A program made the position numbers and the translations under genes. Under the pieces are notes generated by a model. It made no database searches. It was not told the DNA's origin and worked only from the letters and a program-made list of their open reading frames with translations. From the human T2T-CHM13v2.0 reference genome, Homo sapiens: DNA of 64,000 nucleotides. This document shows positions 1,127 to 53,800 of the stretch, piece after piece. The DNA lies in the NCBI RefSeq assembly GCF_009914755.1, contig NC_060925.1. One strand, given 5' to 3'. Position 1 is the first letter of the stretch. Each line of letters starts with the position of its first letter.

Positions 1127-3235
1127 GGTTGGCTCAGCCCTGGTGCAGTCACATAGCTCCCTGCTAGCTGAGCTGAAATTGGAACCCATTCAGTTTGGCT
1201 CTTGCACTGCACAATGGCTCCCCAGCTCCTCTGAGTGAGAACTAAAGCCTTGCAATGCCCTCAGGTCATTGAACCTGGGACTTCTCTTCCTGAGCTGCCT
1301 GCCGCTCTTCCCTGCTCACACCAGGTCAGATGCAGACCTCCCCTCTGGGCCTGAAGCATATCAATCATGCTCCTGCCTCAGGGCCTTTGCACAAGCCATT
1401 CCCACTGCCCGGAATGCTCCCTGCCCAGATATCTGCTTGGCTGACCCATCACCTCCTACAAACCTTGCTCAGATCTTGCCTCATCAATGAGGACAACCCT
1501 GGCCATGCGTCTAGAGGGCGTCCAGCACAGAGTATGTGCTCAATACACAGGTGAAGAAGGAAGAAGGAAGGGATGGAGAAGAGAGAGGTGAAGGAAGGGC
1601 AGAATGCCTATGGCCATTTTTATTCCAGTGATAACTAGTTGCAGTGAATACCTAAGGGCAATGCAGACAGGGCAGAAACAAAGTTCACAAAAGGCCGACA
1701 TGAGCAGGGTGGAAAAATGCAGCTCTACTCATCTGTCCTGGTGCAGATTTGAAGACTCCAGATGTGTCACATCTGGGCAGTCCCTTCTCTGCCCCCTCCC
1801 CTCTGAGCTCTCCTTCTACCTCCAAGCCTGGCCCATCTTCTAGGGATCCAGGACAACACAGGAGACAGCTGTGCATCTCCCAGGACACTGGGAAAGACTG
1901 CCAGTGGGGAAGATGCTCAGTGGCCCTTAAAACTCATCTCGGTTTTGCTCCAACTGTGCAGCCCATCCACTCCTGTGAACAGGAAGAGCACTCAAATGAG
2001 AGCCCAGACACTAGACCCTATTCCTCTTGACATCTGAACATCTTCCCCATCCCCAGCATTTCCCAGGGTCCTGGGAGAGGGACAGCTGTCTCGTGGATTG
2101 TCCTTCTTCACCTGTGTATTGAGCACATACTCTGTGCTGGACGCCCTCTAGATGCATGGCCAAGAGACAAGAGCGACAAGAGCAAAACTCTGTCTCAAAG
2201 AAAAAAGAAAAAAAAATGTGGGCCAGGCACAGTGGCTCATACCTATAATCTCAGCACTTTGAGAGGTCGAGACGGGAGGATCACTTGAAGCCAAGAGTTC
2301 AAGGCAAGGTCTGAGCAAGGTTTGTAGGAGGTGATGGGTCAGCCAAGCAGCTATCTGGCCAGAGAGCATTCCGGGCAGCGGGAATGGCTCGTGCAAAGGC
2401 CCTGAGGCAGGAGCGTGATCGGTACGCTTGAGACCCAGAGAAGAAGTTTGCATCCAGCCTGGTGTGAGCAGGGGAGAGCAGCAGGCAGTTCAGGGAGAGA
2501 AGTCCCAGCTTCAAAGGCCTGCGGCTGCTGCAAAGCTCTAGCTATTACTCAGAGCAGCTGGGGAGCCAGCAGAGGGTCCTGGGCAGAGAAGGGTTCAGCT
2601 GTGGCTCGGGCGTTAATAGGCCACATCACACCTTTGGGGAGAAGAGGGGGACCAGTTGGTTAGTCCAGGTAAGTGATGAAGGGTGCTCAAACTAGGTGGG
2701 AGAAGGCAGGTGGTGAGAAGTGTCACCTCAGGATCATTGTGAAGGTGCCACCTGCATGATTTGCTCGTGGACTGAATTTGCTCAGATAGGGGTGTGGAGG
2801 GAAAAGGAGAGTCCAGTCCACAGGCCCGATGAGCCATGCAGGAGTCAGACTGAATGGGTTTTATTTATTTATTTATTTATTTATTTTTGAACAGAGTTTT
2901 GCTCTTGTTGCCCAGGCTGGAGTGCAATTGTGTGATCTTGGCTCACTGCAACCTGTGCCTCCCGGGTTCAAGTGATTCTCCTGCCTCAGCCTCCTGAGTA
3001 GCTGGGATTACAGGCATGTGCCACCACACCCGGCTAATTTTGTATTTTTAGTAGAGACGGGGTTTCTCCATGTTGGTCAGGCTGGTCTCGAACTCCTGAC
3101 CTCAGGTGATCCACCTGGCTTGGCCTCCCAAAGTGTTGGGATTACAGGTATGAGCCACTGCGCCCTGCCCTGAATGGGTTTTAATTTCAGCTCAGCTAGC
3201 AGGGACCTATGTGACTGCACCAGGGCCAAGCCACT
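1127..3235. repeat. Local inverted duplication of L2-derived sequence (arms ~1127-1561 and ~2101-3235, spacer ~540 bp)
   Basis: 2101-2161 is the reverse complement of 1501-1561 (1 mismatch); 2301-2568 of ~1215-1481; 2836-2861 plus 3171-3235 of ~1127-1206. Contains the L2-type motif cctgcctcagggcctttgcac. Confidence 0.85.
2862..3170 (-). mobile_element. Alu (S-type), full length, inserted into the right arm of the inverted duplication
   Basis: Alu consensus; TSD ctgaatgggtttta at ~2850 and ~3170. Confidence 0.92.
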
Positions 3236-3242
3236 CAGTCTT

Positions 3243-50800: not shown

Positions 50801-53800
50801 CACACTGGCTCATACCTATAATCCCAGCACTTTGGGAGGCGGAAGTGGACAGATCGCTTGAGGTCAGGAGTTCTAGAGCAGCCCGGGCAACATAGCTAGA
50901 CTCCATCTCTTTAGAAAAATAAGGTGGGCGAAGTGGTCTCCACCTATAGTCCCAGCTATTCAGGAGGCTGACGCAGGAGGATAACTTGAACCCTGGCAAC
51001 TGAGGCTGCTGTAAGCTATGATCCTACCACTGTACTCCAGCCTGGCCAACAGAGCAAGATCTTGTCCCCAAAGGAAAATAATCCTAACTTCAGAGGGTTC
51101 TGCTGATCTGGCGAGATCGTAATGTGAAAACATCGCACAGGTAGAGTGTTGAGATTTTTAACCTAGAGATTGTCCCCCTCCTGGCCCTGCCCACCCCCGC
51201 CAAGGTTCTGGAATCCCGGAGGTGAAGACCATGTTGGCGGGTGTGGTCTTGGAGGACTACCTGGATATCAAGAACTTTGGGGCCAAAGTGGTGGGCCTCT
51301 CCTGCACCCTGGCCTGTGGCAGCACCCTCTTCCTCGGCAAAGTGGTATGGGCAGGGGTGAGGGCATCCCAACCACCCTACCCACCCCAGCCACCCCAGTC
51401 TCACCCCCATCACCCCACGAAAGCTGGGTCAGAGGGGACTTGGGCTGGTCCCTGCCTTCCGGGAACTCAGTCTTGGGGGAAGAGGCAGGCCAGGTCCCCG
51501 GAGTGTGACAAAAGCCATCTGAGGACGGCCGTGGGGGCTTGGGAGATGGAGGAGGGGGTGTTGGGGGGAAGCCGTGCTGACTCTGGGTGAGACCGTCTCT
51601 GCTGCCCTCACCTGGGCCCTGGGCCCACCCTTCTCTCTGCAGGGCCCTTTCGTGCACCTGTCTGTGATGATGGCTGCCTACCTGGGCCGTGTGCGCACCA
51701 CGACCATCGGGGAGCCTGAGGTTAGGGACTCGGGGGCTTCCTTGGAGAAATGGGAGTGGGGAGGGAGGGGGCTGACTCTGAGCCCTGGACTCGGATCCTC
51801 CAGAACAAGAGCAAGCAAAACGAAATGCTGGTGGCAGCGGCGGCAGTGGGCGTGGCCACAGTCTTTGGCGCTCCCTTCAGCGGTGAGACCCCTTCATGCC
51901 CCGCCCCCTGGGTCCCTCAAGCTCCTCCCCTCACACCCTGGGCTCCTTCGGCCCAGCTGAGAGCCTGGAGGAGGGGGTGGGGCTCATTCTAGTTCTCACT
52001 TCAGCCCCGCCTTGGGCACAGCCACCGCCCCCCACCGGGGGGAGGGGGGGCGGGTGACTTGATTGGCGGTGCTAAGAGGCTTCAGTGTAACATTATACAG
52101 ACTTGGGTTTGAAATCCACGTATGACCCTGGCCCGTTGGCCTCTCTGAGCCCGGCTTCTTCCTCTACAAAATGGAGATCGCAACCGTCCCCACCCGATAG
52201 CGAGAGGGCGCACACCCGCATTCCAGGCTGGACGGGTCTCTGGGCAGCGGGCTCCTCCCCGCCCAGGGCGCATGCCCTGCCCTCCCCTCCTGTCTGTCCC
52301 TGTCCGGGCTGCAGGAGAGCAGGACAGATGGGTCAGGGAGGAGGTGACATGGGGAGGGGGTCCTACAGTCACAGGTGGGTGGGGGTGGAGGGCCCACCTG
52401 AGATCAGTGTCGCCCCCAGGCGTCCTGTTCAGCATCGAGGTCATGTCTTCCCACTTCTCTGTCTGGGATTACTGGAGGGGCTTCTTTGCGGCCACCTGCG
52501 GGGCCTTCATGTTCCGGCTCCTGGCGGTCTTCAACAGCGAGCAGGGTGAGCCCCCTGGGCTGCCTGACCCTGGCCCTGCCTGGGGGCCGGGGCGAGGGGG
52601 CCCTCCCTTCTCCCCTGTGTACACCCCTTGCTCTTCCTTTCCGTCTCTCTCCCTCTTTTTCCTCTTCCTTGTTCCCACCTCCTTCTGGGAGGATGGAGGG
52701 GGCTGACCTGTGTTGAGCAAGAAGGGCAGGGGCCCTGAGGGTAGAAGGGATGAGGCTGGGCAGGGAGGCAGGAGCCTGGTTGTGGGGGCCTGGAATGCCA
52801 GGACACAGATTCCGAGTCAGGACCTGGCACCCCCTCCACCCTGGGCTGTTAGTCTGGGACTTGAGTTTGGGTCGGGTGGGAGCGCCATCTTGGCTCCCCA
52901 CTGCCCTCCTTCCCCAGAGACCATCACCTCCCTCTACAAGACCAGTTTCCGGGTGGACGTTCCCTTCGACCTGCCTGAGATCTTCTTTTTTGTGGTGCTG
53001 GGGTGAGTGGGTGCCTTGGGCCCCTGAGAGTCCAATATGGCATTCCCCCAAGGCCTGGACTGCGGCCCCTGGTACTGGGGTCAGGCTCTGGGCTCATGTC
53101 TCCATGCTCCCCAGGGGTCTCTGCGGCATCCTGGGCAGCGCTTACCTCTTCTGTCAGCGAATCTTCTTTGGCTTCATCAGGAACAATAGGTTCAGCTCCA
53201 AACTGCTGGCCACCAGGTAGGCTCCGGGCTAAGGGCTGGGGACCTCTCAGCGAGCTCCCCCCCCACCGTACTCCCAACCTTATGTAGAAAGCTCTACCCG
53301 CCACCTGAGCCCCTAAAGCCCATGCCATTATTTTTTCCTGCCCAGACAATGCCCATGCAGTGATCTGGGCCCCCAAGGACCCAGCTTCACCCCCACAGCA
53401 CCCCTAGCCCATGCCCCACATGTGGAGCCCCTAACACCACCTACAAGTCCCCACAGTCACTGCCCGACTACCTTACTGGCCTCAAACCTCCCCATTTAAC
53501 CCCCATATCTCCTGGAGTCTATACCCCCTCAGTGAACCCCAACCCCCTCACTGACCTTTAACCCCCTGTTGGTCCCTCTCTCCCTTTAAACCATGTGTGC
53601 CCGTGGCATTGGCCAAGCCCTCCTGCCCCAGGTGCATGAGCCCTGCCCTAGCCTGGCCCCACTCTGTCCTCCCTCCCAGCCTGCCTGTGCCCCAATTCTG
53701 CTATCAGCCTCTACTCCTAAAAATACCCAGGAGTGTGGGGCTGACCCCACAGGTTCTGTCCCCTGGAGCTGGCCCAGTCCATGTCCCCCATTCCTGCTCT

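What the first reader, a model, noticed from the sequence alone, without database searches (positions are those of the whole stretch)
2162..53398. Four independent locally templated insertions in one window: a candidate template-switch / repair-patch hotspot
Seen: four 77-130 bp inserts, each with an empty site visible in a paralogous copy and a donor to its right: 2171-2300 from 4791-4916 (direct), 26845-26974 from 28505-28634 (direct), 34659-34759 from 37172-37273 or 60501-60602 (inverted), and 53322-53398 from 63147-63224 (direct). None has a poly(A) tail, and three donors are intronic or intergenic, so these are not processed retrocopies. Divergence from donor runs from ~10% to ~1%, implying events spread over a long time. 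Established: polymerase-theta end joining and MMBIR/FoSTeS produce nearby-templated inserts with microhomology. Inference: this locus has repeatedly been repaired by copying neighbouring DNA (or nascent RNA), and the one-sided donor position may reflect fork or transcription direction. With n=4 that bias could be chance, and detection is helped by having a paralog for comparison.
Basis: partly seen in the sequence, partly recalled or inferred. Interest (0 to 1): 0.82.

Follow-up and report, generated by a model that had tools for sequence, protein, structure and literature searches.

The report
Short repair-copied DNA patches, background rate
Four short pieces of nearby DNA were copied into new places around the CLCNKA/CLCNKB kidney-channel genes, most likely during repair of chromosome breaks, but this is a described kind of event and it is about as frequent in ordinary control regions.

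Summary
All four insert/donor pairs are in the sequence, and each has an empty site in a paralog.

- **I2, I3, I4:** these have no copy anywhere else in the genome, so they are not dispersed repeats.
- **I1:** this is Alu-derived. It spans the junction of two neighbouring Alus, its best scored match is the local donor (89% against at most 82%), and 3 of 3 paralogous arms lack it.
- **Direction of change:** gap edges coincide with the edges of donor similarity. For I2 and I4, insert-donor divergence is far below CLCNKA/CLCNKB divergence. These are therefore insertions, not deletions in the paralog.

The events match "repair-mediated duplications" (Pace et al. 2009, PMC2671141). That class has inserts of 50 bp or more, usually a donor under 5 kb away, no poly(A), and junctions with microhomology, filler, deletion or short target duplication.

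The hotspot claim is not supported. The same self-BLAST filter on 10 random genic chr1 windows (300 kb) gave 7 comparable pairs, 7 of 7 genome-unique, and one 30-kb window held 3. This window has 3 in 64 kb (P about 0.1-0.25). The rightward donor bias (4 of 4, two-sided P = 0.125) is not significant. Verdict: ordinary new examples of a known process.

The parts
2163..2301 (+). I1: 139-bp insert in the right arm of an inverted repeat. It is a copy of an Alu tail, an A-run and the head of the next Alu. It replaces about 18 bp that are present in the other arm.
   Evidence: It is 88.7% identical to 4791-4919. The next best of the 40 scored genome hits are at most 82% (3332 candidates in all). 3 of 3 paralogous arms (window 1482-1499 and two on chr17) lack it.
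4791..4919 (+). Donor of I1: the junction between two tandem Alu elements (masked 4537-5121), 2.5 kb to the right of I1.
1130..1561 (-). Left arm of the inverted repeat. It carries the empty site of I1 at 1482-1499.
26844..26979 (+). I2: insert in CLCNKA intron 2. It has a 130-bp copy (26845-26974), one extra base on the left and five bases on the right that repeat the target (a 4-5 bp target-site duplication).
   Evidence: The only other genome copies are the donor and the donor's CLCNKB paralog.
28502..28634 (+). Donor of I2, in CLCNKA intron 4, 1.5 kb to the right. It is ancestral, because CLCNKB has its paralog at 50293-50420.
   Evidence: I2 differs from this donor by 5 of 130 substitutions. 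I2 differs from the CLCNKB paralog by 20 of 127.
48717..48721 (+). Empty site of I2 in CLCNKB intron 2. The two flank alignments overlap by 5 bp here.
34658..34759 (+). I3: insert in CLCNKA intron 15. It has one filler base and a 101-bp inverted copy of a 3'UTR segment.
37172..37273 (-). Candidate donor of I3 in the CLCNKA 3'UTR, 2.4 kb to the right (6 of 101 substitutions).
60501..60602 (-). Alternative donor of I3 in the CLCNKB 3'UTR, 25.7 kb to the right (5 of 101 substitutions). The two UTR copies differ at one site only.
56755..56767 (+). Empty site of I3 in CLCNKB intron 15. An Alu (56406-56711) lies about 45 bp upstream.
53322..53398 (+). I4: 77-bp insert in CLCNKB intron 10. On the right there is a 2-base filler, then target sequence that resembles the donor's continuation (7 of 8 bases).
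   Evidence: It has 0 substitutions and one 1-base gap against 63147-63224.
63147..63224 (+). Best donor of I4, in a FAM131C intron, 9.7 kb to the right.
39815..39892 (+). Alternative donor of I4, in FAM131C2P, 13.4 kb to the LEFT (one substitution).
31535..31546 (+). Empty site of I4 in CLCNKA intron 10.

Best explanation
Each of the four segments is the scar of a separate germline break repair. A broken end invaded, or annealed to, a non-allelic stretch a few kb away on the same chromosome or sister. It copied 77-139 bases, came off the template, and was joined back to the other end through little or no homology.

[quoted passage not shown] That study explains it by synthesis-dependent strand annealing on an ectopic template.

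- **Shown here:** the events happened after the relevant duplications, they are of different ages, and their density in this window is within about 2-fold of what ordinary genic DNA shows.
- **Inferred:** that a double-strand break started each event, and which polymerase and joining pathway acted.

The window is not a special hotspot, and the rightward donor position is most likely chance.
For: **(1) Real and locus-specific.** In some searches, I2, I3 and I4 each give 3 of 3 genome matches inside this window: the insert itself, the donor, and the donor's paralog.

**(2) Insertion rather than deletion.**
- Gap edges coincide with the edges of donor similarity to within 1-5 bases.
- The donors have paralogs in the sister gene copy, while the inserts do not.
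- I2 differs from its donor by 3.8%, against 9.4-13.0% between its CLCNKA and CLCNKB flanks. I4 differs by 0%, against 13.7-18.2%.
- I1 is absent from 3 of 3 paralogous arms.

**(3) Junctions**.

| Insert | Junction features |
|---|---|
| I2 | 4-5 bp target duplication plus 1 extra base |
| I3 | 1 filler base and about 3 target bases lost |
| I4 | 2-base microhomology on the left; on the right a 2-base filler, then a 7-of-8 match between target and donor continuation |
| I1 | about 18 target bases replaced; an 8-base motif at both ends; a 9-base tandem repeat at the left end |

No insert has a terminal poly(A). These are the junction classes of Table 1 in PMC2671141.

**(4) Size and distance.** Inserts are 77-139 bp and donors lie 1.5, 2.4, 2.5 and 9.7 kb away. 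The published class has a median of 147 bp, and 824 of 1136 donors lie within 5 kb.

**(5) Background.**
- 7 comparable pairs were found in 10 control windows of 30 kb.
- 5 of the 10 windows have at least one pair, and one window has 3.
- 7 of 7 pairs are two-copy in the genome.
- All have the same sharp edges: core identity 81-96%, flanks 40-60%.
- Rate tests give P = 0.11-0.49.
Against: - The window's density is nominally 2-fold (>=80% identity) to 3.5-fold (>=90% identity) above my controls. The control sample is small (300 kb, 7 events), so a modest enrichment cannot be excluded.
- Pace et al. report only 0.62 events per Mb of transposon DNA and no clustering. On that scale, 3-4 events in 64 kb would look extreme. 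My own count in controls, about 23 per Mb, shows that their pipeline is much stricter, but the two measures are not the same thing.
- I4's donor is 9.7 kb away, outside their 5-kb class.
- I3's divergence from its donor (5.0-5.9%) is only a little below that of its flanks (8.1-9.3%), so its polarity rests mainly on the coincidence of edges.
- I1 is Alu sequence, and only 40 of 3332 candidate matches were scored. A better donor elsewhere cannot be ruled out.
- No outgroup genome was available.
- Sequence alone cannot separate synthesis-dependent strand annealing from replication-based template switching or from a long polymerase-theta product.
Confidence: 0.75

Rival explanations
1. This reading says the CLCNKA/CLCNKB locus breaks, or is repaired by ectopic copying, unusually often, and that donors lie to the right because of fork or transcription direction.
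For: - There are 3 unique-sequence events plus I1 in 64 kb, against 7 in 300 kb of controls.
- All best donors lie to the right.
- RefSeq annotates three pairs of non-allelic recombination sub-regions and a meiotic recombination hotspot (54755-57445) in this locus.
- I3's right junction is 25 bp from a match to the degenerate PRDM9 13-mer.
Against: - Rate tests give P = 0.11-0.49 before correcting for post-hoc selection.
- One random control window has 3 events in 30 kb.
- The sign test gives P = 0.125, and I4 has a left-hand candidate donor one base worse.
- The PRDM9-type motif has 27 matches in the window. The chance that at least 1 of 4 sites lies within 25 bp of one is 0.10.
- From background knowledge rather than any call, I3's estimated age (about 4-28 My) is likely much greater than the lifetime of a PRDM9-defined hotspot.
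- I1 lies outside the CLCNK duplication altogether.
Confidence: 0.1
2. The segments were ancestral and were deleted from the paralogous copies, so nothing was inserted.
For: The CLCNKA/CLCNKB comparison does contain probable deletions. One example is 1.3 kb of unique sequence present only in CLCNKB (57465-58765). I3's divergence from its donor is close to that of its flanks.
Against: - A deletion would have to remove exactly the stretch that resembles another local sequence, four times over.
- I2 and I4 are far closer to their donors than the two gene copies are to each other.
- I1 is missing from 3 of 3 paralogous arms.
Confidence: 0.03
3. The segments are fragments of dispersed repeat families that happen to lie near another copy.
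For: I1 lies in a masked repeat and is Alu sequence. The repeat mask available here lists only runs of 100 bp or more and covers only 26% of chr1, so old repeats could go unmarked.
Against: - I2, I3 and I4 have no match outside this window at E<=0.01.
- I1 spans an Alu tail, a spacer and the next Alu's head. It is 89% identical to the local junction, against at most 82% for the other scored hits.
- An independent Alu insertion would start at an Alu head and end in poly(A), which I1 does not (background knowledge of Alu structure, not a call).
Confidence: 0.03
4. The template was RNA, either nascent pre-mRNA or a read-through transcript, reverse-transcribed at the break rather than DNA.
For: - The donors of I2 and I3 lie in the same transcription unit as their inserts.
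- I3's donor is in the mature 3'UTR.
- I4's donor could be reached by read-through from CLCNKB.
Against: - No insert has a poly(A) tail or a long target-site duplication.
- 3 of 4 donors are intronic or intergenic.
- I1 lies in no annotated gene.
- In the published class, 0 of 39 proximal events had a poly(A)/poly(T) tail.
- Orientation carries no information on this question.
Confidence: 0.05

Closest known systems
Repair-mediated duplications (RDs), Pace, Sen, Batzer & Feschotte 2009, PLoS Genet (PMC2671141). I read the abstract, the Results and the first part of the Discussion, and I searched passages.
   Same: - Inserts of 50 bp or more with one donor nearby on the same chromosome.
- Typical size about 150 bp.
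- Donor usually under 5 kb away.
- No poly(A).
- Junctions with microhomology, filler, small deletion or short target duplication.
- Either orientation.
- UTRs and introns serve as donors.
- Ages spread through primate evolution.
   Different: - Their acceptors were found inside transposable elements. Here the empty sites come from paralogous gene copies and inverted-repeat arms.
- Their pipeline discarded inserts inside segmental duplications and repeat-derived inserts, so I2-I4 and I1 would not have been listed.
- I4's donor is 9.7 kb away, beyond their 5-kb cut.
'Doublets', short paired local duplications (Thomas et al. 2004, PNAS). I know this only through its description in PMC2671141. 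The paper itself is not held.
   Same: [quoted passage not shown] It matches what my control windows show: 7 in 300 kb.
   Different: As described there, doublets are under 100 bp and nearly identical. No donor or acceptor polarity was assigned.
Polymerase-theta end-joining templated inserts (passages of PMC4490562)
   Same: Copying of nearby sequence into a break, with minimal homology at the junctions and occasional multi-step copying. The repeated short motifs at the I1 and I4 junctions resemble this.
   Different: Those inserts are described as identical to sequence in close proximity to, or immediately flanking, the break, and they accompany small deletions. Here the donors lie 1.5-9.7 kb away and the copies are 77-139 bp.
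MMBIR-type templated insertions (MMB-TI; passages of PMC8421209)
   Same: Template switching at microhomology or microhomeology, with a return to the original site.
   Different: The searched signature is an inverted copy of a template within 100 bp. Here 3 of 4 copies are direct and all templates lie at least 1.5 kb away.
Templated sequence insertion polymorphisms, classes 1 and 2 (PMC5110952; only the start of the abstract was seen in a search listing)
   Same: Insertion of a sequence templated from elsewhere in the genome.
   Different: Those are templated from distant regions, and class 1 is LINE-1 mediated. Here the donors are local and L1 hallmarks are absent.

Membership tests
Repair-mediated duplication (Pace et al. 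2009) | Insert of at least 50 bp relative to an identifiable empty site | tested here: met
   4 of 4 inserts qualify: 139, 136, 102 and 77 bp. The empty sites are in paralogs.
Repair-mediated duplication (Pace et al. 2009) | The inserted sequence is found at only one other place in the genome | tested here: inconclusive
   I2-I4 have only local copies, but there are two each, because the donor itself was duplicated with the gene pair. Their pipeline would have filtered these as lying within a segmental duplication. I1 is Alu-derived and has thousands of partial matches.
Repair-mediated duplication (Pace et al. 2009) | Donor on the same chromosome within 5 kb and not tandem (more than 50 bp away) | tested here: inconclusive
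   3 of 4 events meet this: I1 at 2.5 kb, I2 at 1.5 kb and I3 at 2.4 kb. I4's donor is at 9.7 kb to the right, or 13.4 kb to the left.
Repair-mediated duplication (Pace et al. 2009) | No poly(A)/poly(T) of 5 or more bases at an insert end, and junctions with microhomology, filler, deletion or short target duplication | tested here: met
   4 of 4 meet this. The junction calls are descriptive. The junction calls rest on 0-8 bases each, read after 0-8% insert-donor divergence, so they are uncertain.
Repair-mediated duplication (Pace et al. 2009) | Insert absent at the orthologous site in outgroup species | not testable with these tools
   No primate genomes were available. Paralogs were used instead.
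Polymerase-theta end-joining templated insert | Template in the immediate flank of the break | tested here: not met
   Donors lie 1.5-9.7 kb away. The defining feature is taken from passages.
MMB-TI signature (MMBSearch) | Inverted copy of a template within 100 bp | tested here: not met
   1 of 4 copies is inverted, and 0 of 4 templates lie within 100 bp.
Processed retrocopy / L1-mediated insertion | 3' poly(A) and a long target-site duplication, with an exonic and spliced source | tested here: not met
   0 of 4 inserts have terminal poly(A). Only I2 has a target duplication, and it is 4-5 bp. 3 of 4 donors are intronic or intergenic (and the annotation supplied with the finding).
Dispersed repeat family | Many copies across the genome | tested here: not met
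   I2-I4 have 0 matches outside the window. I1 is made of Alu sequence, but it is a junction fragment whose best match is local.
Mutational hotspot | Event density significantly above matched background | tested here: not met
   3 events in 64 kb against 7 in 300 kb, P = 0.11-0.49. The control sample is small.

The most novel reading that the evidence does not exclude
The CLCNKA/CLCNKB tandem duplication, which carries annotated non-allelic recombination tracts and a meiotic recombination hotspot, could truly accumulate proximal-template repair insertions a few-fold faster than ordinary genic DNA. Templates could be taken preferentially from the downstream side, 3' on the transcribed strand. 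That would point to an asymmetry in end resection, strand invasion or transcription-coupled break repair.
Probability: 0.1. Interest if true: 0.5.

Novelty: new member of a known kind. Interest (0 to 1): 0.2.

Why it matters
The four scars are clean, well-polarised examples of proximal-template repair duplication. They lie in unique sequence and were found without the transposon scaffold used in the original study. This shows that paralogous copies can serve as empty-site references.

[quoted passage not shown] The predicted RNA duplex is -187 kcal/mol, which might matter for CLCNKA pre-mRNA.

The control count of about 23 genome-unique short local duplications per Mb suggests the process leaves many more traces than the 0.62 per Mb of transposon DNA reported in 2009.

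None of this changes what is known about the mechanism, and the locus is not shown to be special.

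Tried and rejected
**Dispersed repeats.** Rejected for I2-I4 by genome searches. For I1 the result is qualified: only 40 of 3332 candidate matches were scored.

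**Unbiased scan of CLCNKA/CLCNKB gaps.**
- A global alignment gave 22 gaps of 12 bp or more.
- In a short-word search of each gap, only I2 and I4 had a local non-repeat donor.
- I3 was not resolved in that alignment, because an Alu in CLCNKB lies next to its site. Its gap comes from the BLAST blocks.
- The remaining gaps were Alu pieces, a CA microsatellite, small gaps without a donor, and 1.3 kb of unique CLCNKB-only sequence.
- One weak hit was not followed: 41 bp at 88% identity, between the CLCNKB-only segment and 27839-27879 / 49611-49651.

**Tandem repeats**. None is relevant to the inserts.

**PRDM9 motif proximity**. 1 of 4 sites lies within 25 bp of a match, P about 0.10, so I treat it as coincidence.

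**Larger control sample.** I planned 40 seeded windows of 40 kb. Only the first 30 kb of the first 10 windows could be fetched. All 10 were analysed and none was dropped.
- Filters applied before counting: E<=1e-8, length 60-400 bp, identity >=80%, under 50% masked on both members, and copies at least 50 bp apart.
- In the own window, the rows that pass also include 4 rows of the 1130-3233 inverted repeat. I did not count these as templated inserts. Counting them as one event gives P = 0.11.

**Literature.**
- Thomas et al. 2004 is not held.
- One search for papers citing Pace et al. found 8 papers. From the titles and abstract openings shown in the listing, none concerns hotspots or donor-side bias.
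- One search on CLCNKA/CLCNKB gene conversion found 3 papers. From the listing, none appeared to concern the evolution of the CLCNKA/CLCNKB locus.
- Supplementary tables of PMC2671141, which give donor and acceptor coordinates, were closed. They could bear on both the clustering and the donor-side questions.

Full report
**What was checked first.** The four claimed pairs were aligned directly. Each insert with 400-bp flanks was then searched against the window. All four are real.

| Insert | Coordinates | Match | Strand | Identity |
|---|---|---|---|---|
| I1 | 2171-2303 | 4791-4919 | direct | 88.7% |
| I2 | 26842-26974 | 28502-28634 | direct | 95.5% |
| I2 | 26842-26970 | 50293-50420 (CLCNKB paralog of the donor) | direct | 82% |
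| I3 | 34659-34759 | 60501-60602 | reverse | 94.1% |
| I3 | 34659-34759 | 37172-37273 | reverse | 93.1% |
| I4 | 53322-53398 | 63147-63224 | direct | 77 of 77 bases, one 1-base gap |
| I4 | 53322-53398 | 39815-39892 | direct | one substitution more |

An unmasked self-BLAST of the whole window gave 334 non-self pairs. 18 of these have both members less than half masked:
- 6 are the collinear CLCNKA/CLCNKB-FAM131C2P/FAM131C paralogy blocks;
- 2 are partly masked Alu-like rows;
- 4 belong to an inverted repeat at 1130-3233;
- the remaining 6 rows are exactly I2, I3 and I4 with their donors and donor paralogs.

**Are they dispersed repeats?** Whole-genome searches of I2, I3 and I4 each returned 3 of 3 matches inside this window and none elsewhere at E<=0.01.

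I1 is different. It lies in a masked repeat (2170-2307). Read against the usual Alu layout (from memory, not a call), it consists of the last ~45 bases of an Alu, an A-run, a short spacer and the first ~85 bases of another Alu. Its donor is the junction between two tandem Alus (masked 4537-5121). Of 3332 candidate genome matches, 40 were scored. The local junction is best at 89%, and the next full-length hits are at most 82%. A fragment that starts in an Alu tail and ends in the next Alu's head is not an ordinary Alu insertion. A better distant donor among the unscored candidates cannot be excluded.

**Insertion or deletion?** Three arguments can be made without outgroups.

1. In every case the edges of the gap against the paralog coincide, within 1-5 bases, with the edges of similarity to the donor. 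A random deletion would not do that four times.
2. The donors of I2, I3 and I4 are present in both gene copies, while the inserts are present in one.
3. Divergence points the same way.
   - I2 differs from its donor at 5 of 130 sites (3.8%). Its CLCNKA and CLCNKB flanks differ by 9.4-13.0%, and the donor differs from its own paralog by 13.4%.
   - I4 has 0 of 77 substitutions, against 13.7-18.2% for its flanks.
   - I3 is less clear: 5.0-5.9% against 8.1-9.3% for its flanks. The two 3'UTR copies differ at only 1 of 102 sites, so they have evidently been homogenised since.

For I1, the inverted repeat has a paralogous locus on chr17. With the I1-bearing arm as the query, both chr17 arms and the window's left arm match on either side of I1. 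They leave 20-22 bp (18 bp in the window's left arm, 1482-1499) where this arm has 140 bp (from the other side). That is 3 of 3 empty arms.

The CLCNKA/CLCNKB comparison also contains what looks like a true deletion. It is 1.3 kb of genome-unique sequence present only in CLCNKB (57465-58765). The caution about polarity was therefore warranted, but it does not apply to these four.

**Junction anatomy (descriptive, because only a few bases are involved).**
- **I2:** a 130-bp copy preceded by one extra base. Five bases follow that repeat the target bases just left of the insert (AGGCA ... AGGCG), a 4-5 bp target-site duplication.
- **I3:** one filler base on the left and about three target bases missing on the right.
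- **I4:**
  - On the left, two bases are shared between the target and the donor's flank.
  - On the right there is a 2-base filler, and then target sequence matches the donor's continuation at 7 of 8 bases. That is a plausible re-annealing point.
  - A 10-base string occurs at the left junction (53317) and again at 53406.
  - CLCNKB has 11 more bases than CLCNKA just there.
- **I1:**
  - About 18 target bases are replaced.
  - An 8-base motif sits at both ends.
  - A 9-base tandem repeat sits at the left end.
- No insert has a terminal poly(A) or poly(T).

**What is known.** Pace, Sen, Batzer and Feschotte (2009, PMC2671141; abstract, Results and first part of Discussion read) describe this kind of event as repair-mediated duplication. 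Their main findings are:
- They found 1136 inserts of 50 bp or more inside transposable elements, each with a single donor.
- 824 have the donor within 5 kb, and 753 within 3 kb.
- Mean size is 162 bp and median 147 bp.
- 0 of 39 inspected proximal events had a poly(A)/poly(T) tail.
- Junctions show microhomology (2-9 nt), filler (1-68 nt), deletions (1-15 nt) and target-site duplications (4-21 nt).
- Donors include introns, UTRs and exons, and one example is in inverted orientation.
- Ages are spread through primate evolution.
- They propose synthesis-dependent strand annealing on an ectopic template.
- They report 0.62 events per Mb of transposon DNA and "no trend ... to form clusters".
- They link the class to the "doublets" of Thomas et al. 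2004. I could not read that paper.

I1, I2 and I3 fit this class on size, distance and junctions. I4 fits except that its donor is 9.7 kb away.

Polymerase-theta templated inserts, as described for C. elegans, copy sequence in close proximity to, or immediately flanking, the break (passages). The MMBIR-type signature searched in human genomes is an inverted copy of a template within 100 bp (passages). They remain relatives, and sequence alone cannot tell which enzymes acted.

**Is the window a hotspot?** Against 0.62 per Mb, three or four events in 64 kb would look extreme, since 0.04 would be expected. That published figure comes from a strict transposon-anchored pipeline, so I measured background with the same filter used on the window.

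From a seeded list of random chr1 windows (at least half covered by mRNA, at most half masked), I could fetch the first 30 kb of the first 10.

The filter was: E<=1e-8, length 60-400 bp, identity >=80%, both members under 50% masked, and copies at least 50 bp apart. It gave 7 pairs in 300 kb:
- separations are 0.95-2.4 kb;
- 6 are direct and 1 is inverted;
- 5 of the 10 windows have at least one pair, and one window has three.

All 7 of 7 pairs have exactly two copies in the genome (in one search there is also a weak self-inverted hit). They have the same sharp edges as the window's inserts, with cores 81-96% identical and 60-bp flanks 40-60%.

This window has 3 events of unique sequence in 64 kb. 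I1 is masked and would have been filtered out in the controls too.

| Comparison | Conditional binomial P |
|---|---|
| 3 of 10 events, whole window | 0.25 |
| CLCNK part only (40.3 kb) | 0.11 |
| Identity >=90% (3 against 4) | 0.11 |
| Pairs <=2.5 kb apart (2 against 7) | 0.49 |
| Inverted repeat counted as a fourth event | 0.11 |

The Poisson P of at least 3, given the control rate, is 0.19. None of these allows for the window having been chosen because of these features. A 2- to 3.5-fold enrichment cannot be excluded with 300 kb of controls, but nothing requires it.

**Donor side.** Four of four best donors lie to the right, a two-sided sign test of 0.125. For I4, the left-hand FAM131C2P copy differs from the right-hand FAM131C copy at one site in 78, and that one site decides the side. 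For I3 both candidate donors are to the right. The nearer one (2.4 kb) is one substitution worse than the farther one (25.7 kb). The control pairs cannot be polarised without outgroups, so the bias could not be tested further.

**Ages.** I used the 2.2e-9 per year rate quoted in PMC2671141 and d = 2*mu*t.

| Insert | Point estimate | 95% interval |
|---|---|---|
| I4 | 0 My | 0-11 My |
| I2 | 9 My | 3-20 My |
| I3 | 11-14 My | 4-28 My |
| I1 | 18 My | 9-32 My |

These are rough.

**Surroundings.** RefSeq marks three pairs of non-allelic recombination sub-regions in the two genes. It also marks a meiotic recombination hotspot at 54755-57445, with a PRDM9-type motif at 56783-56795. The CLCNKA paralog of that motif (34784-34796) lies 25 bp from I3's right junction. 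The degenerate motif has 27 matches in the window, against 10.5 expected from shuffles. The chance that at least one of four sites lies that close to a match is 0.10. From background knowledge rather than any call, I3 is probably older than any present-day PRDM9 hotspot. I record the proximity but do not build on it. Only I4 overlaps an annotated element, a broad H3K4me1 enhancer interval.

**Verdict.** The repair-patch reading is right in kind and corresponds to a class described in 2009. The hotspot and direction claims are not supported by the tests I could run. The inserts are new, individually unremarkable members of a known kind.

Noticed in passing
57465-58765: 1.3 kb of CLCNKB intron 16 has no counterpart in CLCNKA (the junction is at 35464-35466) and no other copy in the genome, apart from one 45-bp hit at E = 4e-6. 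It is probably a deletion in CLCNKA.
   Followed up: partly
1130-3233: An inverted repeat has arms at 1130-1561 and 2101-3233, 86-98% identical. The right arm is interrupted by I1 and by an Alu at 2852-3172. The same inverted structure exists at a paralogous chr17 locus. Its nature is unknown; it may be a segmental-duplication remnant next to the TBC1D3K-like pseudogene.
   Followed up: partly
34659-34759 with 37172-37273: I3 and its donor are inverted copies inside the same CLCNKA pre-mRNA (intron 15 and 3'UTR). The predicted RNA duplex is -187 kcal/mol, against -42 +/- 5 for a shuffled partner. This could form a long double-stranded RNA stem.
   Followed up: partly
34784-34796 and 56783-56795: A match to the degenerate PRDM9 13-mer lies 25 bp from I3's right junction. 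Its CLCNKB paralog is the RefSeq-annotated motif inside an annotated meiotic recombination hotspot. By my estimate this is not significant (P about 0.10).
   Followed up: yes
L001/L021/L002 (chr1:164164001-164194000) and four other control windows: Genome-unique, sharp-edged, two-copy local duplications of 67-225 bp, 0.95-2.4 kb apart, are common in random genic DNA: 7 in 300 kb. That is about 37 times the published 0.62 per Mb of transposon DNA.
   Followed up: partly
56406-56711: An Alu is present in CLCNKB but not in CLCNKA, about 45 bp from the site that corresponds to I3. It has a duplicated ~11-bp target (A 34610-34620 matches on both sides). Two independent insertions therefore hit nearly the same spot in the two gene copies.
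   Followed up: no
58619-58659 with 27839-27879 and 49611-49651: A 41-bp inverted match at 88% identity (E = 6e-6) links the CLCNKB-only intron segment to intron 3 of both genes. It could be an old unmasked repeat or another small templated patch.
   Followed up: no
whole window: The degenerate PRDM9-type 13-mer occurs 27 times, against 10.5 +/- 3.0 in dinucleotide-preserving shuffles, and 0 of 100 shuffles reach 27. Part of the excess comes from paralogous copies and C-rich sequence.
   Followed up: no
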